Assembly (NCBI GenBank): GCA_045567855.1
Contig: JBJLCC010000037.1
Location: 34,625 to 98,624, forward strand
Length of the DNA stretch: 64,000 nucleotides
Origin: Candidatus Poseidoniales archaeon
GTDB taxonomy: Archaea > Thermoplasmatota > Poseidoniia > MGIII > CG-Epi1
Reading direction: 5' to 3'
Shown: piece by piece, positions 7,013-28,796 of the stretch
How positions within the stretch are numbered: position 1 is the stretch's first letter
Layout: each line of letters opens with the position of its first letter
Made by a program: the position numbers and the translations under genes
Notes under the pieces: generated by a model
Told to the model about the DNA's origin: nothing
The model's database searches: none
What the model saw: only the letters and a program-made list of their open reading frames with translations

Positions 7013-10000
7013 CTAAAGTGGAGAGTCTCCAATCAATCCACAATGTGGGCACATGACTTCGCTTTCATCCCCAGCAAGATTCTCAAATTCCTTTTGACAT
7101 CCTCCCTCACAAACGAAAACTACGGTACGAGAGAATTGGCTTCCTTGAAGGACACTAAATGAAGGCTTTTCTTCAATAACAGAGTCTATCTCTTCCTTGG
7201 CTAGAATCTCGACCGGAACTAATATACTCGAGTTTTCAACATCAATAGGAACTTCTTCAACTTTATTCTTGAAGATATACGCACCTGAAGCAACGGCAGT
7301 TAAGATTAGCAATACTGCAACAATCATGTAGTTATCTATCTGAGTTGAATCTTTGTTACCGCTAGCTGCACTGTTAATGTTTTCATATTCTACAAATATT
7401 TCAAGCATCTCACCTTCCATATTGGCATTTAGGTACCCCATTCGATCTACTGAAATTATTCGGTAATAGTGGAAGCCTCCGCTCAAATTATAAATTTCAT
7501 AACTCATTTTAGTTTTCGTAAACTGAATATTTTCAATAGTCTCCCAAGGCCGAGAAAAATTATTTCTACTCTCGATAATATATGATATGGCGTCTTCAGC
7601 CTCAATCCATTTAATAGTTAAATTATTTTGCCCAGTAATTTCATACTCGACAGATTGAACTGGCATCGGTAACCTATTATCTATGGTTGTAGCTAAATCA
7701 TATCCTGAATAGGATATAGAAATAGATGAGTTTTCAGGTGGAAGGTATCCTATATCGCCATTTCCAAAAACTAGCTTTCCAAATTCATAATCTATCCAAT
7801 ATTGATTTGCTTTCATACCTGATAAATCATTTCCATTGTATTCTTGTAAAACTTTATCGTAAATTCCGTTTCGGTTTTCGTCAACTATAATCTCAACGTT
7901 CTTTAGCTTTCCTGTCATCACAGGTTTTAATGGAATTGTTGGTAGTTCAATTTCATTGGTCATATTTTCATAGTCAAATATAAATTCAAATTCTTCTCGT
8001 GAATATTCATTACCTGCGTAATCGATTGGTTTAATTCTGAAATAGTATGTGTATCCATCAACTAGATTTCTAATTGTGTAATCATCATTAATCCATTCCT
8101 CATCAAATGGTTTCCATTCTAGTATATCTTCATTGTTCTCATTAAGCCTAGAATATTCTATTTCTAGTTCTGACAATTCTTCAGACTTATATTCAACAGA
8201 CAAGACTAAGTCATCTGTATTTCTTAATAAATCAATTTGGTTTAATTTAACTGAGGGCTTCACTCTGTCAAATGTGATAGTAACATCAGGTATTAGTTTG
8301 AGCTCTTTATTTCCAGAGTAATCGATACTTCTTGATCTAACTAAGTATGTCCCATCCGCTCCCGGATTAAACCAATATTCTCCTATTCCAGTAAAGAGGC
8401 CATAGCTTGACCATTCAGTATCATTGATTTCTTTGTATTCTATAACGTACGCAGATATGTCAAATGTCCCATTTTCTTTCCAGTTAAGAGTAACACCATT
8501 AAGATTTGTATATTGTAAATTCCCTTCACTAAGCCACAATTCAGATCTAGGTAAATCCATGTCAATTCTAACTTCGGTGTCATATACTCCTTTGAATTCT
8601 TTGTTTCCGTTAATATCTACCCCTATTGTACGGAATCGGTATATCATTCCATTTTCTACAGAAAAATTAGTTGAGAATATATTTGTATAATAGTCGTAAA
8701 GTATCCAATCACCTATCGAGCTTCCGTCTTTAATTTGATAATATAAGTAAAACCCCACAAGATCACCTTCATTTGATATTTCTTTCCATGTTAATGGTAT
8801 TATTGTAGAATTTTTGTAAAAACCATTTTCGTCAACTTTTGTTATTGGAGCAGTAGTATCCAGCATAATTGGAATCTTATAAGTGGCATCTTTGTAATTC
8901 CACAAATTTGCTTGTGGAAAGGTTACAAAAATTTCTTGATCAAACCACTGTGTGTTTTGAGGATTACCTACAACGCTGGCGATGACGTTTTCACCCTGCA
9001 GTAGATAGTTAGTGAAAATTTGCACTTCGTCATTCCAATATTCAGCTCCATGTCCACTCCCTTCGTCTAAATCTCCAAAAACAAATATTCCATTAATGTA
9101 ATGATCTCCATAGTTGTTACTTGCAACATTAATGTTCATAACACCATTTTCATAAATTCCGAGATTTGTTATGTTAAAGACATGTCTGAAATAGGCATAA
9201 TTATCATCATCCCACTCAGTTTTGTAATTTACACCCTCAATTGAGCTGTCACCAAATGGAGAGTAAGCACTTGCCCAATCGGTATCATTAAATGACGATG
9301 TGGTCCAGTTTGTATTTCCATAAAGTTCTTCATAGTCACTTGATTCTATCCACTTCCATGTGACATCAGCATCTCTTCCGCTGTTAAGGAGGTTTTGTTG
9401 AACAGTATAATCATGTTCAGTATTTACTGTGAAAGAAAGATTATGGTACCCATCTTCAATTGATGAAGGTAATACCGCATTAATAGTTACATCTATAGAT
9501 TCTCCTGGCTGAAGTATAAACTCATTTGGAGTAAATGTTATTTGTGAATTTATTTCTCCAGATGAGGGAATCAAAGTAACATTATCAGTAATCCCTCCAT
9601 TATTTGTAATTGTAATAATTTTTGTTAGTATTCTGGTTTGATTAATATGCTCAAGATTCTCGTCAATTTCCGTTTTCAGGCGATATATCTTTGCACTAAC
9701 GTTCAAGTGTAAGTCATTATTTGATAAAATGGTATCGTTGCAGTTACAAGTAATGTTTATGTTAAGTGTATTTTCACCGATATATTTGGGGGTCCAAGTA
9801 AAAAATATTAAATCTTCATATTCTTGAGGCATACTCGAGAAAGACACTAAGCTAATATTCGTTTCGTTAGTGTATGATCTTATATTTACATCGTTAGAAA
9901 TCTCATCACCATTATTTCCTCCATTAACTGCAACTGTAATAGTATCTCCAAAAATTATAGATTCATTAGTTGGTTCAAAAACGCTAGCAGTTATTTGTAA

Positions 10001-10633
10001 GTCGAGCCATTGTCTATTCTGGTTTCCGCTACCCCAAACGTAATCTCTTCCATAAACTGCAAGAACATTCTGCCCTCTCAAAAAGTCTTCAGGTTCGATT
10101 GAACTGGTTCCGTCATCATTCCAATAATCAGCTCCGTGGGAATTTCCGCCAGATTCTTCGTAGATTAAATTACCATTAATGTAAGGTGTACAATAATTTG
10201 CAAAAGCCACATTAATCTCAGCTTCAGTTACTATACCATTAAGTTGAAACTTGTGACGGATTAAAATAATATCATCATTATAAGGCGAGCTTCCCGACGT
10301 GTCCCAATCTGTATTTGGATCTACATTATTGTCACTTCTATCTCCAAATGGTGCAGCTCCGAAGACCCATGACGTGTCATTGAAATCAGGTTTTGACCAA
10401 TTCAATGGAGCCTCTGAATAATCATCAATAATCAAATATTTGTAATATGTTGCGTTATCTCTTCCACTTTGGACAATGGTCAAGCTTTCAGCATTATCTT
10501 TAGAATACATCACTTCATTAATATACGGTTCTTGTTGAGCTCCAGAAGTAGGCATAAATGCAATGGTAATTAAGGTCAAAATCACCAAAATCATCATTAA
10601 AGCATATGATTTCACGATATTAAAATTGTACAT
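7013..10633 (-). CDS. giant cell-surface protein: signal peptide, duplicated ~200-aa beta-rich module, FN3-like domains, many N-x-S/T sequons, C-terminal TM anchor plus cytoplasmic Zn-ribbon tail
   Basis: 1206-aa ORF; N-terminal hydrophobic signal; two homologous segments (NWSKPDFNDTSWVFGAAPFGD../SGGNSHGADYWND and NWTTSSFNDTDWASAYSPFGD../SGHGAEYWND); TM MIVAVLLILTAVASGAYIF; tail CEGGCQ..(18)..CPHCG. Confidence 0.8.
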   Translation of the reverse strand: MYNFNIVKSYALMMILVILTLITIAFMPTSGAQQEPYINEVMYSKDNAESLTIVQSGRDNATYYKYLIIDDYSEAPLNWSKPDFNDTSWVFGAAPFGDRSDNNVDPNTDWDTSGSSPYNDDIILIRHKFQLNGIVTEAEINVAFANYCTPYINGNLIYEESGGNSHGADYWNDDGTSSIEPEDFLRGQNVLAVYGRDYVWGSGNQNRQWLDLQITASVFEPTNESIIFGDTITVAVNGGNNGDEISNDVNIRSYTNETNISLVSFSSMPQEYEDLIFFTWTPKYIGENTLNINITCNCNDTILSNNDLHLNVSAKIYRLKTEIDENLEHINQTRILTKIITITNNGGITDNVTLIPSSGEINSQITFTPNEFILQPGESIDVTINAVLPSSIEDGYHNLSFTVNTEHDYTVQQNLLNSGRDADVTWKWIESSDYEELYGNTNWTTSSFNDTDWASAYSPFGDSSIEGVNYKTEWDDDNYAYFRHVFNITNLGIYENGVMNINVASNNYGDHYINGIFVFGDLDEGSGHGAEYWNDEVQIFTNYLLQGENVIASVVGNPQNTQWFDQEIFVTFPQANLWNYKDATYKIPIMLDTTAPITKVDENGFYKNSTIIPLTWKEISNEGDLVGFYLYYQIKDGSSIGDWILYDYYTNIFSTNFSVENGMIYRFRTIGVDINGNKEFKGVYDTEVRIDMDLPRSELWLSEGNLQYTNLNGVTLNWKENGTFDISAYVIEYKEINDTEWSSYGLFTGIGEYWFNPGADGTYLVRSRSIDYSGNKELKLIPDVTITFDRVKPSVKLNQIDLLRNTDDLVLSVEYKSEELSELEIEYSRLNENNEDILEWKPFDEEWINDDYTIRNLVDGYTYYFRIKPIDYAGNEYSREEFEFIFDYENMTNEIELPTIPLKPVMTGKLKNVEIIVDENRNGIYDKVLQEYNGNDLSGMKANQYWIDYEFGKLVFGNGDIGYLPPENSSISISYSGYDLATTIDNRLPMPVQSVEYEITGQNNLTIKWIEAEDAISYIIESRNNFSRPWETIENIQFTKTKMSYEIYNLSGGFHYYRIISVDRMGYLNANMEGEMLEIFVEYENINSAASGNKDSTQIDNYMIVAVLLILTAVASGAYIFKNKVEEVPIDVENSSILVPVEILAKEEIDSVIEEKPSFSVLQGSQFSRTVVFVCEGGCQKEFENLAGDESEVMCPHCGLIGDSPL

Positions 10634-10708: not shown

Positions 10709-14844
<4,136 letters not shown>

Positions 14845-23243: not shown

Positions 23244-26200
23244 CTAGAATAAGCTTAGACTATCTGAATTGGCCATTCTATCTAGAGTTTCAGTAACTAG
23301 TGAAGTAGGGCCAAGCACTTCTTTAGCATGTAAAAACATGCATCTTATTTCATTTCTTTCCAGACCTTCAAGTGATGGCATAATGTTAGATCTAATAACT
23401 CTGTCCAAAGCCAGTTCAGGTCCATATTTTTTAATTGAATTAAATATAGTGACCATCGAATCAATTAATAATGCAGGTCCAATTTTTCTAAATGTACGTA
23501 CTCCGAGTGGAGCTTCATCGCCACGTTTTGGTGGTTCACTTGGTTTCAAAAAGTTTACTAATTTTTCATGGCAAGCATACATGCTTCCATCTTCATCATA
23601 GAAGTCAAACTTCTTTTGAGGGAAGTGGCGACAAGTTTCTCCAAATTTCCACAAGCCATCGCCTTCGGGCCTGTCAGGCACTAAACCTAATTTCTTTAGT
23701 TTGAAATAAACAAAAACAGGCATACGATTGTATTCATCTTCAGGTAGTGGCAAACCTATTTCAACGAAAGCAAAACGCCTCATTAGAGCGAAACCAACGT
23801 TAAACAAGGTATTCTTATCTTGAGTATTCATTGTTCCAATAATTCTAAATTCTGGAGGCATCATGAACGGAGCGCCCCCGGTTTCTTTATGAGTTAGTAA
23901 CGGTTGTTTATCTCGATATTCAAAAACTGTAAATAATTTACCAAACGCTTCATCAATATTAGCTCTGTTAAACTCATCAATTACTAAGTAGTGGGGCCTA
24001 CCTCTTTCACGGATTGATTTTTCACATAATTTGGCAGCTTCTGCGACATATCCATCTTTGAAGTAATATCCTCCAGAATCATCGGGTGAAATACCGCCAA
24101 TAACGTCGAAATTCGACCATTCGGCATTAGCTGTAACGATAGTGTAATTTGGTGCCATACTTCCGTTTGGCTGCTTTATTTCTCCACATAATTTGGTTAA
24201 CAAAATATTGGATAAAGCAGTCTTACCAGTCCCTGGTTCTCCGAATAGCATAATATTCTTACCTGAAGTTAAATGAGTAATAACTTCGTCCACAGTCTCT
24301 TGCGTTGTTGAATATGCCTCAGCTATTTCATGGAAATCAACCTCATAATCCACTTCTATTGCTTGTCTTATTTCAACAGATTGATCTACAGTATCCATCA
24401 TTGTCTTTTCAACTAACTCAAGATCCGGTGTATGTTCAGTAGTGTGTTTAAGTTCGACTTGAAATTCGTCTCCATATTCATTCATTAAAAATTCCATAGC
24501 TGAGTCTACAGTCCATTCGGGCATCACTTTTTGTTCACCTGGAACAGATGGTGCAAAAGGATCTTGTCGGTTTGGCATAGCTGCATCACTAGCAATAGAT
24601 AATTCACGCAGTTTTTGAGAACCAAATTTGTAGCTTAGCCAAAATCCTACAGCAGTAACCAATGCAGATAATAACAGATTAAACTGTGCTTCACCATCAT
24701 CAGGCCATTCGATATCATTTCCACCTAAGACTACTGGAGCGATGAAAGTTCCAAATAGTGCGAATATTCCAGAGGCAAATATTACGAAGTAAGCAACTCC
24801 CATTGAACCAGATTCTCCTCTTCGTTTTCGATAAAAGGAGACCATTCCGACAGTTGCCACTCCTAGGGCCATTACAGTCAGGGTTGTATCATTTTCATCA
24901 AATACTAATGCACCTTCGTCACTGGTTACAACATTGAAAACTAGAATTGCAAATTGTAAGCCCAGACCGGATAGAATCATTGAGAAGTATTTAGCCTCAT
25001 CAATATCATTAATTTTAGTATTTGATATCAACCAATTTGCAACGCCCAAGAAAAGAAGCGTTGCAGAAAGTAATACCATCATATTACTTCCATTTCCTAA
25101 GTCAAGGGCAACAATTTCTAAATTTTGATACCCTATTTGTTGACATTGTGAAATATCTTCTTCAGCAACATTATTATCTATCAAATTTTGGAGGTAAGAT
25201 TGTGGTAATTGTGTGTTACATATAGTGTAAGGGCCTAAAGAGTAATTGTAGAAAACAGAGGAGAATAAAGATGCGGCAGCGAGTATGAAAATGTAGAATG
25301 TCAAGCTAGGAGGGTCACTTAGTGATCTTCCTAAAGACGTTCGTATTAGTAAAACACTTCCTGAAACAATTAGACCTATAGTGCAAACAAAACCGATAGT
25401 TAGAGGAAGAGCAAATATTACATTGTTGAGCAACCCGCCATATATTGCAAATAGAATAGTTTCGAATATTGCGAATCCCAAAATAGGAAGTACAATTGAT
25501 GTGTTTGGTATTTTATTGTAAATGTAGAACGCCGTCGTAATAAGTAGCAAATTTAAAAGCATAAAAGAGAAAGTACTTATAAATTTCATATCTACAGGAC
25601 ACCCAAATCTCTCGTCGTCGTCTACTTGACGACTTTCGTCTCTGTCTGTAAGTAAAATATCGAAGCCTTGTTCATCAGATTTTACAAAATCGATGTACCT
25701 CTGGCTATCCCATATTTCACAGTTGAACGGCTCCCCAGAAAATGGTTCAGAGGTACCTCTTCCAATAAGCGTACTATTGCCATCTGGTGTTGGTTTGTTG
25801 TAAGGGTCTGATGGCATATATCCATCTAATGATTCTTGAGAAGTAGTAGGGACAGAAGACACTGCAAGGCCAATAACTCCAGATAATAGTAAAATTGAAA
25901 TTACAACTATAGTCAAAGGAGCAATATAGTTAATCTCACCTTTAGACAAGAAAATTCTGTCGAGCTTTTTGCTAATATCTGCAAAGAAAGTTCCTAATTG
26001 GGGAATATTATCAATAAATTTAGATAATGCATTGTCGGTTTTTTCATCGGTCGGATTTGTTTCTGTAGCATTCAAAGTTTCTTCAAGCAGCCTTTCTTCT
26101 TCACTTAATTCTTTTACATCTTCAGAGCCTTTCTCATCAGTTGGTAAACCATCTAATTTCATACCTGCGATATCTTCAGAGATATCGCCTGAATCCTTAG

Positions 26201-26321
26201 TCTCAGCTTTCTTTTCCGGTGTTTCTTTGACGGCCGGTTCAAAATCAGATCCACACATGCTGCATGTAAGAGCGTTATCATCCTCTTCCATTTCACATAC
26301 AGGACAGACCTTCATAGACAT
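23244..26321 (-). CDS. fusion protein: N-terminal Zn ribbon, acidic linker, ~9-TM membrane domain with ~100-aa Cys-containing extracytoplasmic loop, C-terminal McrB-like AAA+ (AAA_5) NTPase
   Basis: CPVCE..(9)..CSMCG; multiple hydrophobic helices aa ~125-570; IMLFGEPGTGKT (Walker A), HYLVIDEFNRANIDEAFGKLF (DExNRA Walker B of the McrB/MoxR clade), IIGTMNTQD (sensor 1). Confidence 0.8.
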   Translation of the reverse strand: MSMKVCPVCEMEEDDNALTCSMCGSDFEPAVKETPEKKAETKDSGDISEDIAGMKLDGLPTDEKGSEDVKELSEEERLLEETLNATETNPTDEKTDNALSKFIDNIPQLGTFFADISKKLDRIFLSKGEINYIAPLTIVVISILLLSGVIGLAVSSVPTTSQESLDGYMPSDPYNKPTPDGNSTLIGRGTSEPFSGEPFNCEIWDSQRYIDFVKSDEQGFDILLTDRDESRQVDDDERFGCPVDMKFISTFSFMLLNLLLITTAFYIYNKIPNTSIVLPILGFAIFETILFAIYGGLLNNVIFALPLTIGFVCTIGLIVSGSVLLIRTSLGRSLSDPPSLTFYIFILAAASLFSSVFYNYSLGPYTICNTQLPQSYLQNLIDNNVAEEDISQCQQIGYQNLEIVALDLGNGSNMMVLLSATLLFLGVANWLISNTKINDIDEAKYFSMILSGLGLQFAILVFNVVTSDEGALVFDENDTTLTVMALGVATVGMVSFYRKRRGESGSMGVAYFVIFASGIFALFGTFIAPVVLGGNDIEWPDDGEAQFNLLLSALVTAVGFWLSYKFGSQKLRELSIASDAAMPNRQDPFAPSVPGEQKVMPEWTVDSAMEFLMNEYGDEFQVELKHTTEHTPDLELVEKTMMDTVDQSVEIRQAIEVDYEVDFHEIAEAYSTTQETVDEVITHLTSGKNIMLFGEPGTGKTALSNILLTKLCGEIKQPNGSMAPNYTIVTANAEWSNFDVIGGISPDDSGGYYFKDGYVAEAAKLCEKSIRERGRPHYLVIDEFNRANIDEAFGKLFTVFEYRDKQPLLTHKETGGAPFMMPPEFRIIGTMNTQDKNTLFNVGFALMRRFAFVEIGLPLPEDEYNRMPVFVYFKLKKLGLVPDRPEGDGLWKFGETCRHFPQKKFDFYDEDGSMYACHEKLVNFLKPSEPPKRGDEAPLGVRTFRKIGPALLIDSMVTIFNSIKKYGPELALDRVIRSNIMPSLEGLERNEIRCMFLHAKEVLGPTSLVTETLDRMANSDSLSLF

Positions 26322-26391
26322 TCACAGACTACTCCATTAAAATGTTATCTCATGATTTTAAGCATGACTGACTTGAGAGAAAATCAAAAAC

Positions 26392-26399
26392 TTTAAATA
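26392..26399 (+). promoter_or_regulatory. TATA-like box ~25 nt upstream of the 26424 ATG (probably leaderless transcript)
   Basis: TTTAAATA in the divergent intergenic region 26322-26423. Confidence 0.3.
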
Positions 26400-26423
26400 G
26401 GAGGTCTGGTAAAATCAACTCCT

Positions 26424-28796
26424 ATGAAAGAGCAATTACAACAGATACAAGCCGTAGCAGTTGTTACTTTTCTTTGTATTTTAATTTCTGTAAATAGTAC
26501 TGGTGACTACGGGAAATGGTTTGTGATTGATGGTGCTCGTGAAACCGTAGATCCAGAAACTGGCAATGTTACACAATACAATACTTTCCAGTACCATTAT
26601 TATTTGGATTCATATTTACTTACAGATACTACAGGAAACAGTGAATCAGTACCATATGATAGTCAAGATTGCGTTTATTGTCTAAATAAGGTTTCTTCAT
26701 CTGATAACGCGAAAATGACTGCGTATGCAGCAGGACTGTTGGCATTAGTAGTGGCTTACATGGCCAATAATGCAGTTAGTAGTCTTCATCAAAATACACT
26801 TAGAAGTGCACTTAAAAATTTAAAATATTTTGCGATTATAGTACTTATAGTTGGATTTTTGTCTACTTTTTTATTTTACACTACTTGGTCTGAATCGCTC
26901 ATACAAGATGAGGTAGCTCTTACTTCAACAAATGCAGAAGGCTCAGATAGTAACAAAGAATTAGGGTGTATCAAAAATTTACTTACTTTCTTCGGTGAAG
27001 GGACTTGTGAGGAGTATGTTCAATTACAAGCCGGTGAAGCAGATAGAGTAACAGGAAGACTGGGTCCAGTTTCTTGGAGTCCAGGCATTGGATTTTTTAT
27101 TGTTTTGATAGGAACTGCACTTACTGGTGGTGGAACGCTTTACATCTTAGGTAATCTGGACGAAGAATGGCAAGCAATATTGAAAAAACAAGAATTAATA
27201 GAGAGGCAACAGCAAATTCATGACGGCGAATTAGAAAAGAGTAAAGAATTAATGCAAGAGTTTGATGATACCGAAGAAAGATTGAAAGAAGCTGAAAAAA
27301 GAATTGAAGATGTACGAGCTTCTACTAATGACATTGATTATGACGGTATTGAGGATTTGGAGAATGAGCTTGACAGAATAACAGCATTAAATCAAAGTGT
27401 TAATACGCTAAATAATTCTTTAGAGTCGAAATTGAAAACTGCTCGAATTGCTACCTCAGAAGTTGAGAAGAGAGCTAGAATGGCTGAAAAAGAGTTGCAG
27501 GATGACCTTTCAGCAAAAAACAACTTAGAAAAAGAGATAGAGGACTTGAGAACTAAACATGAAAACGATATGCGTCTTAGTGATAGGATGACTAGGGAAA
27601 TTGGGTCTCTAAGGACAATGAGTGATGAAGCAGAGACTAAAGCCGTTGATGCTGAGAGAAAGTTAAAATTAGAAAAACCAGATACAGTTAATGCTTTGGA
27701 ATCTTATGATTCAGTCAAGGCCTCTTATGATAAAACTGTCGGAGAGAAGAATAATTTAGAGAAAGAGATCATGGAATTGGAGCAACATACTTTGGAAGCT
27801 AATGAAAGGGAAAAATCAGCTCTTGCAGAAAGAAACGAGGCAATAAACAGAAGAAAAGAATTGGATAGAGAGGTAAAATTAATGGAAAAGAATAAAAAAA
27901 GAATTAATGATAAGTTTACTACATTAACTACAAATTTGGAAAAGGCTAAGAAAGAGCTCAATGATGCTCGAGAAAAAGCATCTCTTACTATGAACGAGCT
28001 TGATATTGAAAGACAAACTATTATTGAGCTTGAGCAGAATAGTGAGCAATTCAGACAAAAAGAGAATGAAATTCTTGGTATGACTGACTCACTTAAAGAA
28101 TTGCAGGAACAAGTGGATAGTCAAAGAGATTCAAATAAGAAAATCGAGGATGAATTGAAGATTGAGGTAAAAAGTAAGGAAAAGACACAAAAAGATTTGA
28201 CTGCTTTGGAGAATGCATCACAACAAGTAAGTAAAGTAATGCAGACACTCAAGAAACAATTTGAGGATGCAAAAGCTGAATTAAATATTAGCATTGATGA
28301 TCGCAACAAAGCCGAAAGAGTACTTGAAGCTGAAAAAACAGAACATGAGAAGCTAAAAGAGGATCTAGAGTTTCTACAGGGAACTACTATAGGTAGTGAA
28401 GAAGGAACTGAACGTAAAATTAAGGCTATGGAAGTAGAGATTCCAAAAGAAAAAGAGTTAGCTGGTGAAATGAATGCGGAGGCGCAAAAGCTTTCGGATA
28501 GTAATAAGGAGTTAGAAGAAAAAATTAAGGAAGCGCGTATTGAAAGTTTAAGTAAGCCTGAAAATACAACAGATGTAAATAATGCGACCGGAGCTTCGAT
28601 TGGTACTAGCCTTATAGTAAAGAATTTGACAAAAGAAACTGAACATACTTTTGAATTGGTTAATGCAGAAGATGCAAATATTCCGCAAGGTAAAATACCT
28701 TTGTCAAACCCAATAGGTAAGTCTCTTGAGGGTTCAAAAGAAGGCGATGAAGTTAAAGTGGGACCAACGACATTCAAAGTTCTCAAAGTAAATTAA
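26424..28796 (+). CDS. membrane-anchored giant coiled-coil protein with C-terminal GreA/GreB-like (FKBP-fold) domain
   Basis: 4 predicted TM in the first 240 aa; ~450 aa heptad-rich Glu/Lys sequence; C-terminus TFELVNAEDANIPQGKIPLSNPIGKSLEGSKEGDEVKVGPTTFKVLKV aligns with GreA [46 protein letters not shown]. Confidence 0.8.
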   Translation: MKEQLQQIQAVAVVTFLCILISVNSTGDYGKWFVIDGARETVDPETGNVTQYNTFQYHYYLDSYLLTDTTGNSESVPYDSQDCVYCLNKVSSSDNAKMTAYAAGLLALVVAYMANNAVSSLHQNTLRSALKNLKYFAIIVLIVGFLSTFLFYTTWSESLIQDEVALTSTNAEGSDSNKELGCIKNLLTFFGEGTCEEYVQLQAGEADRVTGRLGPVSWSPGIGFFIVLIGTALTGGGTLYILGNLDEEWQAILKKQELIERQQQIHDGELEKSKELMQEFDDTEERLKEAEKRIEDVRASTNDIDYDGIEDLENELDRITALNQSVNTLNNSLESKLKTARIATSEVEKRARMAEKELQDDLSAKNNLEKEIEDLRTKHENDMRLSDRMTREIGSLRTMSDEAETKAVDAERKLKLEKPDTVNALESYDSVKASYDKTVGEKNNLEKEIMELEQHTLEANEREKSALAERNEAINRRKELDREVKLMEKNKKRINDKFTTLTTNLEKAKKELNDAREKASLTMNELDIERQTIIELEQNSEQFRQKENEILGMTDSLKELQEQVDSQRDSNKKIEDELKIEVKSKEKTQKDLTALENASQQVSKVMQTLKKQFEDAKAELNISIDDRNKAERVLEAEKTEHEKLKEDLEFLQGTTIGSEEGTERKIKAMEVEIPKEKELAGEMNAEAQKLSDSNKELEEKIKEARIESLSKPENTTDVNNATGASIGTSLIVKNLTKETEHTFELVNAEDANIPQGKIPLSNPIGKSLEGSKEGDEVKVGPTTFKVLKVN

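What the first reader, a model, noticed from the sequence alone, without database searches (positions are those of the whole stretch)
23244..26321. Zn-ribbon + polytopic membrane + McrB-like AAA_5 NTPase fusion without a McrC partner
The C-terminal ~385 aa (about 23244-24400) carry Walker A GEPGTGKT, the diagnostic DExNRA Walker B (YLVIDEFNRANIDEAFGKLF) and sensor-1 IIGTMNTQD of the McrB/MoxR (AAA_5) clade. The N-terminus has a cytoplasmic C-x2-C..C-x2-C ribbon, an acidic linker, ~9 TM helices and a ~100-aa Cys-containing outside loop. McrB-type GTPases normally partner with McrC nucleases in restriction or defence. Here the motor is welded to a membrane domain and no McrC/PD-(D/E)xK gene is adjacent. 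This suggests an uncharacterised membrane-embedded NTP-driven machine (transport, secretion, envelope remodelling or membrane-associated defence).
Basis: partly seen in the sequence, partly recalled or inferred. Interest (0 to 1): 0.75.

Follow-up and report, generated by a model that had tools for sequence, protein, structure and literature searches.

The report
Membrane-embedded McrB-type GTPase with coiled-coil partner
A marine archaeon (Marine Group III) encodes a McrB-type motor protein, normally half of a DNA-restriction enzyme, built into a ten-helix membrane protein; it is paired with a membrane-anchored coiled-coil protein instead of a nuclease and is as conserved as a housekeeping gene, so it is probably an uncharacterised GTP-driven membrane machine.

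Summary
Window 23244..26321(-) is a real 1025-aa gene with this order: Zn ribbon, acidic linker, 10 TM helices (not 9), linker, McrB-type AAA+ module (GEPGTGKT, DEFNRAN, NTQD, RR). Two outside loops carry four invariant Cys and an EF-hand-like loop.

The fusion is not chimeric. It is full length in about 50 protein clusters and 26 species genomes of Marine Group III/Poseidoniia archaea.

- The gene always sits head-to-head with a 790-aa protein (26424..28796+; 4 TM, ~450-aa coiled coil, GreA C-terminal-like domain). This holds in 27 of 27 loci, including a lineage with different flanks.
- The same genomes carry a paralogue (41-50% identity) that is always followed by a divergent McrC-family, nuclease-like gene. 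That pair is outside this window.
- The ATPase core is 96-98% identical across lineages, like TFB, and lies in housekeeping synteny. That is unlike mobile defence genes.

The membrane domain has no relatives outside the family and matches no solved fold.

Best reading: a McrBC-derived, membrane-integral GTPase motor whose McrC was replaced by the coiled-coil partner. Its cellular role is unknown. I rate it a new variant of a known kind, interest about 0.65.

The parts
23244..26321 (-). Whole gene, 1025 aa: Zn ribbon, acidic linker, 10-TM domain, linker, McrB-type AAA+ GTPase, C-terminal helical domain ('paralogue A')
   Evidence: ORF. Full-length homologues at 49-90% identity. 26 species genomes.
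26253..26306 (-). N-terminal C4 zinc ribbon (C6, C9, C20, C23), cytoplasmic
   Evidence: Sequence. All four Cys present in >=90% of 30 homologues. In the unfused relative L074 a separate Zn-ribbon protein holds this place.
25947..26243 (-). Acidic, poorly conserved, disordered linker (residues 27-125)
   Evidence: Mean column identity 0.41. pLDDT<50 over residues 28-109.
24633..25928 (-). 10-TM membrane domain (TM1 132-154; TM2-5 247-358; TM6-10 413-563), N-in/C-in
   Evidence: Hydropathy and positive-inside rule. AF2 helices. The profile finds only family members among 1.84 billion representatives. No solved fold matches.
25584..25859 (-). Outside loop 1 (residues 155-246) with invariant C201 and C241
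25611..25646 (-). EF-hand-like 12-residue loop in outside loop 1 (DRDESRQVDDDE; family consensus DxNxNGxVDxDE)
   Evidence: Present at the same position in 29 of 30 homologues.
25086..25247 (-). Outside loop 2 (residues 359-412) with invariant C368 and C393. In some lineages it holds 106-238-aa D/N/G-rich Ca-binding-type repeat insertions.
24303..24626 (-). Conserved cytoplasmic linker between TM10 and the ATPase (residues 566-673)
   Evidence: Column identity 0.87.
23754..24302 (-). McrB-type AAA+ large subdomain (residues 674-856)
   Evidence: Column identity 0.97.
24219..24242 (-). Walker A, GEPGTGKT (invariant)
23958..23990 (-). Walker B with the McrB-type DEFNRAN extension (invariant)
23817..23828 (-). 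NTQD, the NxxD signature of McrB GTPases (E. coli NTAD), invariant; followed by ALMRRF, which aligns to E. coli ALRRRF
   Evidence: Alignment to 6hz4. Motif definition from PMC11090510.
23247..23753 (-). C-terminal helical domain (residues 857-1025) ending in the clade-wide tail ...SLSLF
   Evidence: Column identity 0.90. The tail is conserved in L070, L071, L074 and paralogue B.
26322..26423 (.). 102-bp divergent intergenic region shared with the partner gene; A/T-rich TATA-like elements face both ways
   Evidence: Sequence. A similarly short spacer of about 80-120 bp is seen in other loci. The promoter reading is inference.
26424..28796 (+). Co-conserved partner gene, 790 aa
   Evidence: Immediately upstream and divergent in 27 of 27 testable paralogue-A loci, including L005/L029/L030 where the flanks differ.
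26424..27158 (+). Partner: 4-TM domain with two Cys-containing outside loops (residues 1-245)
   Evidence: Sequence. Alignment A4.
27159..28523 (+). Partner: cytoplasmic coiled-coil stalk of about 450 aa (residues 246-700)
   Evidence: Coiled-coil-type hits to SMC and Rad50. Only three Pro and high charge between residues 241 and 720.
27555..27614 (+). Partner: most conserved block, KHENDMRLSDRMTREIGSLR (residues 378-397), candidate contact site
   Evidence: 94% column identity across partners that are only 33% identical overall. Its role is inference.
28596..28790 (+). Partner: GreA/GreB C-terminal-like domain
   Evidence: Pfam PF01272, 37.8 bits against a cut-off of 26.9, E=1.8e-9. Precomputed on the partner orthologues in the four contexts fetched for this.

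Best explanation
The gene encodes a membrane-integral member of the McrB family of AAA+ GTPases.

Shown:
- It has an intact McrB-type nucleotide site (Walker A, DEFNRAN, NxxD, RR).
- That site sits on the cytoplasmic side of a family-specific 10-TM domain. The outside loops of the domain are Cys-bridged and carry Ca-binding-type motifs.
- There is a cytoplasmic Zn ribbon on a flexible acidic tether.
- The gene is invariably paired, head-to-head, with a protein of 4 TM helices, a long coiled coil and a GreA_C-like domain.
- The same genomes carry a paralogue with the same architecture, followed by a divergent McrC-family gene.
- Soluble relatives elsewhere sit in restriction-like contexts (EVE domain, DNA methyltransferases).

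Inferred:
- The family began as a McrBC-type module that became membrane-anchored.
- After duplication, copy A (this gene) lost its McrC and recruited the coiled-coil protein as the element that engages the GTPase ring.
- By analogy with McrBC, six subunits form a ring under the membrane. A segment of the partner docks in or on the ring and stimulates GTP hydrolysis. The candidates are the invariant Arg-rich block 378-397 or the GreA_C end.
- Hydrolysis does mechanical work on whatever the Zn ribbons and the partner hold, coupled to the envelope through the two membrane domains.
- Its conservation and fixed chromosomal position point to a lineage-wide core function at the envelope rather than a mobile defence system. 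The substrate is unknown.
For: - McrB identity. NxxD is the McrB signature (PMC11090510).
- Fusion conserved: about 50 full-length clusters and 26 assemblies.
- Topology.
- Partner co-occurrence is 27/27 and survives a change of flanking genes.
- Paralogue B with a downstream gene in every testable locus.
- The downstream gene is linked to McrC by three results. The A3 profile hits the partners of restriction-context relatives (E=1e-11 to 1e-5 among 5 sequences). One of those partners passes Pfam McrBC. Their profile aligns to E. coli McrC in the right register (p=0.004).
- Restriction-like relatives: EVE plus tandem AAA_5; methyltransferase neighbours.
- An unfused operon (surface TSP3 protein, Zn-ribbon protein, soluble GTPase, McrC-like gene) supports a multi-part system.
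- Core-gene behaviour: the AAA core is 96-98% identical where TFB is 95-96%, Elp3 84-88% and TyrRS 77-81%. Synteny is conserved. It is not found on viral contigs.
Against: - No result shows that the GTPase and the coiled-coil partner touch. Adjacency is the only link.
- Hexamer formation, GTP specificity and stimulation are extrapolated from E. coli and T. gammatolerans McrBC.
- The ATPase part of the AF2 model is poor (pLDDT about 30-60), because the alignment is nearly invariant.
- The ATPase modules of A and B are almost identical: 178 shared conserved positions and only 17 discriminating ones. The McrC-like partner of B could therefore serve A as well, which would make 'McrC replaced' wrong.
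- A fixed, vertically inherited defence system is unusual but not impossible.
- The McrC link for the B partner is transitive and modest. The direct comparison with E. coli McrC is negative.
Confidence: 0.5

Rival explanations
1. It is still a restriction or defence enzyme. Copy A joins copy B in mixed rings, or separately borrows B's McrC-like nuclease. Together they form a membrane-tethered type IV restriction-like system that intercepts foreign nucleic acid where it enters the cell. The outside loops and the coiled-coil protein act as sensors or scaffolds.
For: - A nearly always co-occurs with B (24 of 26 assemblies).
- The ATPase cores of A and B differ at only 3 of 80 positions over residues 777-856, with 17 discriminating positions in 470 aa.
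- The E/E/K triad of the B partner is kept in all 23 sequences that matched the motif pattern, out of the roughly 34 Poseidoniia paralogue-B loci.
- Relatives sit beside EVE domains and methyltransferases.
- The Asp of NxxD, which contacts McrC in E. coli (PMC11090510), is invariant in A.
Against: - Both pairs occupy fixed housekeeping synteny and evolve as slowly as TFB. That is unlike known defence islands.
- PADLOC gives no meaningful hit.
- The catalytic Lys of the B partner is replaced (Q, R, I or L) in several lineages.
- A has its own strictly co-conserved partner, which this model leaves without a necessary role.
Confidence: 0.25
2. It is a polymer translocase. The 10-TM domains of a ring form or gate a channel, and the AAA+ ring pushes DNA, protein or polysaccharide through it. 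It would be built like FtsK/SpoIIIE or the archaeal Ced DNA importer.
For: - The architecture of an N-terminal polytopic domain, a long linker and a C-terminal ring ATPase parallels FtsK/SpoIIIE (own knowledge).
- A Planctomycetales relative lies between a gene I read as GumC-like (no family hit) and a Poly_export (Wza-like) gene.
- McrBC is classically described as a GTP-dependent DNA translocase (own knowledge).
Against: - In solved McrBC complexes the ring pore is filled by McrC, not by substrate (Niu et al. 2020, as cited in PMC11090510, and own knowledge of the 6hz4 and 6ut6 structures).
- No uptake or secretion genes lie nearby.
Confidence: 0.12
3. It is a MoxR-like chaperone (like NorQ, CbbQ or GvpN) that matures or remodels a membrane protein complex. 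The McrB resemblance would only reflect the shared AAA_5 ancestry.
For: - Pfam places it in AAA_5.
- JGI names some homologues 'MoxR-like ATPase'.
- There is a weak GvpN hit, E=1.2e-3.
- The top Foldseek hits of the full-length model are NorQ and CbbQ, but from a low-confidence region.
Against: - All significant sequence hits are to McrB, none to MoxR, RavA or NorQ.
- The McrB-specific DExNRAN and NxxD motifs are present.
- No VWA-domain partner and no gas-vesicle genes are nearby.
- The paralogue has a McrC-family partner.
Confidence: 0.06
4. It is a chimeric ORF created by a frameshift or an assembly error that joined a membrane gene to an ATPase gene.
For: One relative, from a pilon-polished long-read assembly (L073), shows the gene split into a 536-aa part and a 365-aa part.
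Against: - The uninterrupted fusion is seen in dozens of independent assemblies and single-cell genomes.
- L036 is 96-97% identical to L073 in the adjacent partner gene and has an intact 949-aa ORF. The L073 split is therefore the error.
Confidence: 0.01

Closest known systems
McrB of the McrBC type IV restriction enzyme (E. coli K-12; Thermococcus gammatolerans; PDB 6hz4, 6ut6, 6ut3)
   Same: The AAA+ GTPase core has Walker A, DExNRAN Walker B, the NxxD signature and paired Arg. E=5e-19 over residues 674-856.
   Different: - The N-terminal DNA-reading domain is replaced by a Zn ribbon plus a 10-TM domain.
- The C-terminal domain is about 65 aa longer and has a clade-specific tail.
- There is no McrC in the operon; instead there is a divergent gene for a 4TM / coiled-coil / GreA_C protein.
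- It behaves as a core, syntenic gene.
Its own paralogue B with a downstream McrC-family gene (e.g. L052 3992..8864; not in the window; undescribed as far as my literature searches show)
   Same: The same Zn-ribbon, TM and GTPase architecture, 46% identity. The ATPase core is nearly identical.
   Different: B is always followed by a nuclease-like gene of 683-917 aa. B has no GreA_C partner. Its first outside loop is shorter and lacks the EF-hand-like motif.
CoCoPALM / CoCoNuT McrBC variants (Bell et al., eLife 2024, PMC11090510)
   Same: McrB-family GTPases associated with transmembrane and coiled-coil elements.
   Different: - Those belong to the NxD clade; this is NxxD.
- Their TM part is an FtsB-like single helix fused to the GTPase.
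- They keep McrC.
- They are bacterial, and CoCoNuTs are said to be nearly absent from archaea.
FtsK/SpoIIIE and the crenarchaeal Ced system (membrane-anchored ring NTPases)
   Same: The layout: a polytopic membrane part, a linker and a cytoplasmic ring NTPase (own knowledge).
   Different: The ATPase class is unrelated (RecA/HerA-type against AAA+ McrB-type). No sequence or fold similarity was found.
GreA/GreB/Gfh1/Rnk (for the partner's last ~65-105 aa)
   Same: The C-terminal domain passes the Pfam PF01272 threshold. The GreA alignment covers GreA positions 48-157 of 160.
   Different: - No GreA N-terminal hairpin tip was matched.
- The domain is attached to a membrane-anchored ~450-aa coiled coil.
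- Archaea use TFS rather than GreA (own knowledge).
- Scores fall far below the GreA equivalog cut-offs (41.5 against 145 bits).
MoxR-class AAA_5 chaperones (NorQ, CbbQ, GvpN)
   Same: The same Pfam family, AAA_5.
   Different: No VWA partner. The McrB-specific motifs are present. No significant sequence hit to MoxR-class proteins.

Membership tests
McrB-family AAA+ GTPase (COG1401 / AAA_5 McrB clade) | Significant sequence similarity to the McrB AAA+ domain | tested here: met
   PDB McrB 6hz4 E=4.6e-19. NCBIfam McrB E=2.2e-18, a domain-level match far below the equivalog cut-off. hhalign 99.1% probability.
McrB-family AAA+ GTPase (COG1401 / AAA_5 McrB clade) | Walker A plus Walker B extended to DExNRAN | tested here: met
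   GEPGTGKT and IDEFNRAN are invariant in 30 homologues.
McrB-family AAA+ GTPase (COG1401 / AAA_5 McrB clade) | NxxD signature motif in the sensor-1 position | tested here: met
   N832-T-Q-D835 aligns with E. coli NTAD. Motif definition from PMC11090510.
McrB-family AAA+ GTPase (COG1401 / AAA_5 McrB clade) | GTP-specific hydrolysis and hexameric ring | not testable with these tools
   Needs biochemistry or a multimer model. The monomer model of the ATPase is of low confidence.
McrBC type IV restriction system | McrC gene (DUF2357 / McrBC N-domain plus PD-(D/E)xK nuclease) in the same operon | tested here: not met
   The downstream neighbour is a convergent peroxiredoxin. No McrC-like sequence is found in the window. 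It is met only for paralogue B, in other loci, by transitive profile evidence.
McrBC type IV restriction system | N-terminal nucleic-acid (modified-base) reading domain on McrB | tested here: inconclusive
   There is only a C4 Zn ribbon, whose binding specificity is unknown. A Thermoplasmata relative has EVE in this place.
McrBC type IV restriction system | Patchy, island-like distribution typical of defence genes | tested here: not met
   Conserved housekeeping synteny. TFB-like conservation. No PADLOC system hit.
CoCoNuT / CoCoPALM McrBC branch | NxD (shortened) signature motif | tested here: not met
   The motif is NTQD, which is NxxD.
CoCoNuT / CoCoPALM McrBC branch | Coiled coil fused to the McrB and McrC homologues; FtsB-like TM (CoCoPALM) | tested here: not met
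   The coiled coil is on a separate partner. The TM part is a 10-helix domain with no relatives outside the family.
MoxR-class AAA_5 chaperone | VWA-domain partner and MoxR-type sequence | tested here: not met
   No VWA gene lies within the regions examined, 10 kb or less on each side. No MoxR, RavA or NorQ sequence hit at E<0.01.
GreA/GreB transcript-cleavage factors (partner gene) | GreA_GreB C-terminal domain | tested here: met
   PF01272, 37.8 bits against a cut-off of 26.9. Also on the partner orthologues.
GreA/GreB transcript-cleavage factors (partner gene) | N-terminal coiled-coil hairpin with acidic tip; full-length equivalog score | tested here: not met
   No GreA_GreB_N hit. The alignment starts at GreA position 48. 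41.5 bits against a cut-off of 145.
Known transporter or channel folds (membrane domain) | Structural match over most of the TM domain | tested here: not met

The most novel reading that the evidence does not exclude
A McrBC restriction motor has been exapted in Marine Group III archaea into a core, trans-envelope GTP-driven machine. A ring of membrane-integral McrB-type GTPases would be driven through a membrane-anchored coiled-coil 'shaft' with a GreA-like head. It would link a cytoplasmic nucleic-acid or nucleoprotein target to the cell surface, for example in DNA uptake or segregation or in envelope remodelling. That would be a new functional class for the McrB family and a new type of archaeal membrane machine.
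Probability: 0.3. Interest if true: 0.85.

Novelty: new variant of a known kind. Interest (0 to 1): 0.65.

Why it matters
McrB-family GTPases are known almost only as the motors of cytoplasmic restriction enzymes. Here the same motor is welded to a family-specific 10-helix membrane domain and duplicated. One copy keeps a McrC-like nuclease partner. The other has exchanged it for a membrane-anchored coiled-coil protein with a GreA-like head. Both copies are kept as slowly evolving core genes in an abundant but uncultured group of ocean archaea.

If the inference holds, it shows how a defence motor can be recruited for a cellular function. It also points to an unknown envelope-associated process in planktonic archaea. 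The two paralogous pairs form a natural experiment on how McrB rings choose and drive their partners. The cytoplasmic module and partner fragments are small enough to test in vitro, even though the organism cannot be grown.

Tried and rejected
- Chimeric ORF: rejected, because the fusion is conserved. The one split copy (L073) is an assembly frameshift.
- Homologues truncated at the N or C terminus (P0045, P0047, P0050-52): the one I looked up (P0051/L006) ends 57 nt from a contig end, and P0050 is labelled partial by NCBI. I did not check the others.
- A sequence relative for the membrane domain: a profile search of 1.84 billion representatives found only the family itself. P0226 is a weak hit to a giant TIG-repeat protein and was not informative.
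- The full-length AF2 model was poor in the ATPase part, and its fold search was uninformative.
- Direct tests that the paralogue's downstream gene is McrC were all negative: Pfam, NCBIfam and PADLOC at E<=1, a PDB profile search, hhalign and BLASTP against E. coli McrC. Only the transitive route through restriction-context relatives worked.
- hhalign between the two partner families found no relation.
- Viral origin: only two ordinary, distant McrB hits on viral contigs.
- Defence-library assignment: only weak, partial PADLOC hits.
- Literature: no description of this architecture was found.


Full report
**What is there.** Window 23244..26321 (minus strand) is a 1025-aa ORF. Pfam places residues 689-850 in AAA_5 (E=3.3e-19). 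The more specific evidence all points to McrB:
- The best NCBIfam model is McrB (E=2.2e-18, a partial domain-level match).
- The only solved-structure sequences hit at E<0.01 are McrB chains (6hz4 at 4.6e-19; T. gammatolerans 6ut3 at 1e-14).
- A family profile aligns to E. coli McrB with 99.1% probability.
- The alignment puts NTQD on E. coli's NTAD. [quoted passage not shown] It also puts ALMRRF on ALRRRF.

The neighbouring genes (TFB, Elp3, TyrRS, peroxiredoxin, M3 peptidase) and the best genome matches show that the window comes from a Marine Group III archaeon close to CG-Epi1.

**Anatomy.**
- The N-terminus is a C4 zinc ribbon (C6, C9, C20, C23). It is followed by a poorly conserved, acidic, disordered linker.
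- Hydropathy and two AlphaFold models agree on ten transmembrane helices, not nine. With ten helices, and with basic loops such as RKRRG on the inside, both the Zn ribbon and the ATPase are cytoplasmic.
- Two loops face outside: residues 155-246 and 359-412. Each has two invariant cysteines.
- Loop 1 holds a 12-residue EF-hand-like motif (consensus DxNxNGxVDxDE) at the same position in 29 of 30 homologues.
- In some lineages loop 2 carries 106-238-aa insertions of D/N/G-rich calcium-binding-type repeats. This fits an extracellular location.
- After TM10 come a conserved linker, the AAA+ core and a 169-aa helical C-terminal domain that ends in ...SLSLF.

**Not a chimera.** About 50 protein clusters at 49-90% identity have the full architecture. 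A scan of one genome per species found it in 26 assemblies, including single-cell genomes. The one split copy (L073) comes from a polished long-read assembly. Its near-identical relative L036 has an intact 949-aa ORF.

The gene is transcribed divergently from 26424..28796(+), across a 102-bp spacer. That gene encodes a 790-aa protein with four TM helices, Cys-containing outside loops and a cytoplasmic coiled coil of about 450 aa. Its C-terminal domain passes the Pfam threshold for the GreA/GreB C-terminal domain (37.8 bits against 26.9; GreA positions 48-157). In every orthologous locus with enough upstream sequence, 27 of 27, this gene is the immediate divergent neighbour. That includes the most divergent lineage (L005, L029, L030). 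There the GTPase is 50% identical and the partner 33-34% identical to the window's. In L005 and L030 the flanking genes are different: a histidine kinase, response regulators and an OPT transporter in L005. The partner's most conserved stretch is not the GreA-like domain. It is an Arg-rich block in the coiled coil, KHENDMRLSDRMTREIGSLR, residues 378-397, at 94% column identity.

**A paralogue with a McrC-like gene.** The same genome scan found a second copy at 41-50% identity in 24 of the 26 assemblies that have the first, and alone in 11 more. It has the same Zn-ribbon, TM and GTPase layout. In every testable locus it is followed, within about 90 nt and usually within 8 nt, by a gene of 683-917 aa. 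In most loci a GAPDH-like gene comes next. Neither the paralogue nor its partner lies in this window.

The downstream protein has no hit in Pfam, NCBIfam, PADLOC or PDB sequences. It shows no direct similarity to E. coli McrC. A transitive route gave a link:
- More distant McrB-like relatives lie beside DNA methyltransferases or an EVE protein, and have unannotated downstream genes of 438-489 aa.
- The paralogue-partner profile hits these genes (E=1.2e-11, 2e-10, 7e-8 and 1.5e-5 in a five-sequence search).
- One of them passes the Pfam McrBC threshold (24.2 bits against 23.9).
- A profile of the four aligns to E. coli McrC at p=0.004 in the right register: sirGkidwnkti with GIKGRIEFAKTI, and PD...DaK...YkmLgY...GiLffP with TD...DAK...YQLMNY...GLLIYP.

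The paralogue's partner has the matching PE...ExK...YKVLAY...GGIIYPG. The E/E/K triad is kept in all 23 sequences that matched the motif pattern, but the Lys is replaced in several diverged lineages. I therefore regard it as a divergent McrC-family protein, with moderate confidence.

**Relatives outside the fusion.** The ATPase module, with its special C-terminal domain and tail, also occurs in three other settings:
- In a Thermoplasmata genome as TPR + EVE + two tandem AAA_5 modules, followed by a homologue of the McrC-like gene.
- In an unassigned archaeal contig as a soluble protein inside an operon that also encodes a surface protein with a TSP3 calcium-binding repeat, a separate Zn-ribbon protein, the McrC-like gene and a Cys-rich protein.
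- In a Planctomycetales MAG fused to DUF4340, with a Poly_export (Wza-like) gene downstream.

So the Zn ribbon, a calcium-binding surface component and the GTPase recur as separate genes elsewhere. This supports reading the fusion as a multi-part system.

**Evolutionary behaviour.** I compared the window with lineages in which TFB is 95-96% identical, Elp3 84-88%, TyrRS 77-81% and the M3 peptidase 68-70%. In the same comparisons:

| Part of the gene pair | Identity |
|---|---|
| AAA core | 96-98% |
| C-terminal domain | 81-89% |
| TM domain | 43-60% |
| N-terminus | 31-57% |
| Partner protein (whole) | 63-69% |

In four loci examined in detail (L001, L003, L006 and the window) the gene lies in the same housekeeping neighbourhood. 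PADLOC gives no real hit. Viral contigs carry only two distant, ordinary McrB genes. This is how a core gene behaves, not a mobile defence island. The ATPase modules of the two paralogues are nearly interchangeable: 178 shared conserved positions against 17 discriminating ones, and 3 differences in 80 residues around Walker B and NxxD.

**Interpretation.**
- Shown: this is a membrane-integral McrB-family protein with an intact nucleotide site. It has a strictly co-conserved coiled-coil partner and a paralogue that keeps a McrC-like partner.
- Inferred: the family began as a membrane-anchored McrBC-type pair. After duplication this copy lost its McrC gene, and the coiled-coil protein took over as the element that engages the ring.
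- Inferred by analogy with solved McrBC complexes: six subunits form a ring under the membrane, and a partner segment docks in it and stimulates GTP hydrolysis. The work is then transmitted between a cytoplasmic target, held by the Zn ribbons or the GreA-like head, and the envelope.
- I give this 0.5.
- The main rival (0.25) is that it remains a membrane-tethered restriction system that uses the paralogue's nuclease in trans or in mixed rings. The near identity of the two ATPase cores and the invariant Asp of NxxD fit that rival.
- A polymer translocase (0.12), a MoxR-like chaperone (0.06) and an artefact (0.01) are less likely.

**Novelty.** My literature searches found no description of this architecture. 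The nearest published case is the bacterial CoCoPALM branch: an NxD motif, an FtsB-like single helix, and McrC retained. It is mentioned but not analysed in PMC11090510. The motor is of a known kind. The membrane domain, the GreA-like coiled-coil partner and the core-gene behaviour are new. I rate it a new variant of a known kind, interest 0.65.

Noticed in passing
L052 3992..8864 (Marine Group III CG-Epi1 contig MIZA01000008); likewise L032-L066, L072, L073: A paralogous membrane-anchored McrB-type GTPase (about 890-970 aa), immediately followed by a 683-917-aa divergent McrC-family gene and, in most loci, a GAPDH-like gene. It is present in 35 species genomes and appears undescribed.
   Followed up: yes
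L074 5552..11784 (metagenome contig next to RNA polymerase genes): An unfused version of the system in one operon: a 634-aa surface protein with a TSP3 calcium-binding repeat and one C-terminal TM helix, a 140-aa Zn-ribbon protein, a soluble McrB-type GTPase, a 562-aa McrC-like protein with a degenerate nuclease motif, and a 220-aa Cys-rich CxxCxGxG-repeat protein.
   Followed up: partly
L070 3023..7987 (Thermoplasmata archaeon bin33, CP070751): A 1090-aa protein with TPR repeats, an EVE domain and two tandem AAA_5 modules. The first module has degenerate Walker B and NxxD motifs; the second is intact. It is followed by a homologue of the McrC-like gene.
   Followed up: partly
L071 977..5552 (Planctomycetales MAG): A bacterial relative of the same ATPase clade, fused to DUF4340. 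A Poly_export (Wza-like) gene lies downstream and a coiled-coil gene with no family hit (GumC-like by eye) lies upstream. A fragment similar to the McrC-like gene lies further downstream.
   Followed up: no
P0037-P0041, P0198; loci L022-L028 (insertion after window residue 374): Some lineages carry 106-238-aa Asp/Asn/Gly-rich repeat insertions (DxDGDGNY-type, calcium-binding-like) in the second outside loop of the membrane domain.
   Followed up: partly
window 23247..23261 (last five residues) and the C-termini of the proteins in L052, L070, L071, L074: The extreme C-terminal tail S-(L/V/M)-S-(L/V/I)-F(-G) is conserved from the archaeal fusions to the bacterial relative. It may be a docking peptide.
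   Followed up: no
window 28121..28786 (-): A 221-aa antisense ORF lies wholly inside the partner's coiled-coil and GreA-like region. Its Ser/Phe/Leu-rich translation looks like a mirror-strand artefact of a Glu/Lys-rich gene, not a real gene.
   Followed up: no
window 7013..10633 (-) and 10709..13585 (+): Two large divergent ORFs (1206 and 958 aa) upstream in the window were not examined.
   Followed up: no
L010 and L037 (both from MAG PBPR01): One MAG holds two copies of the window-type gene at different identity (77% and 95%). This suggests a mixed-strain or contaminated bin.
   Followed up: no
NCBI taxid 1888995: NCBI taxonomy files 'Marine Group III euryarchaeote CG-Epi1' under Candidatus Thermoprofundales. 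The titles of closely related genome records say Poseidoniia or Poseidoniales. The naming of this lineage is inconsistent between sources.
   Followed up: no
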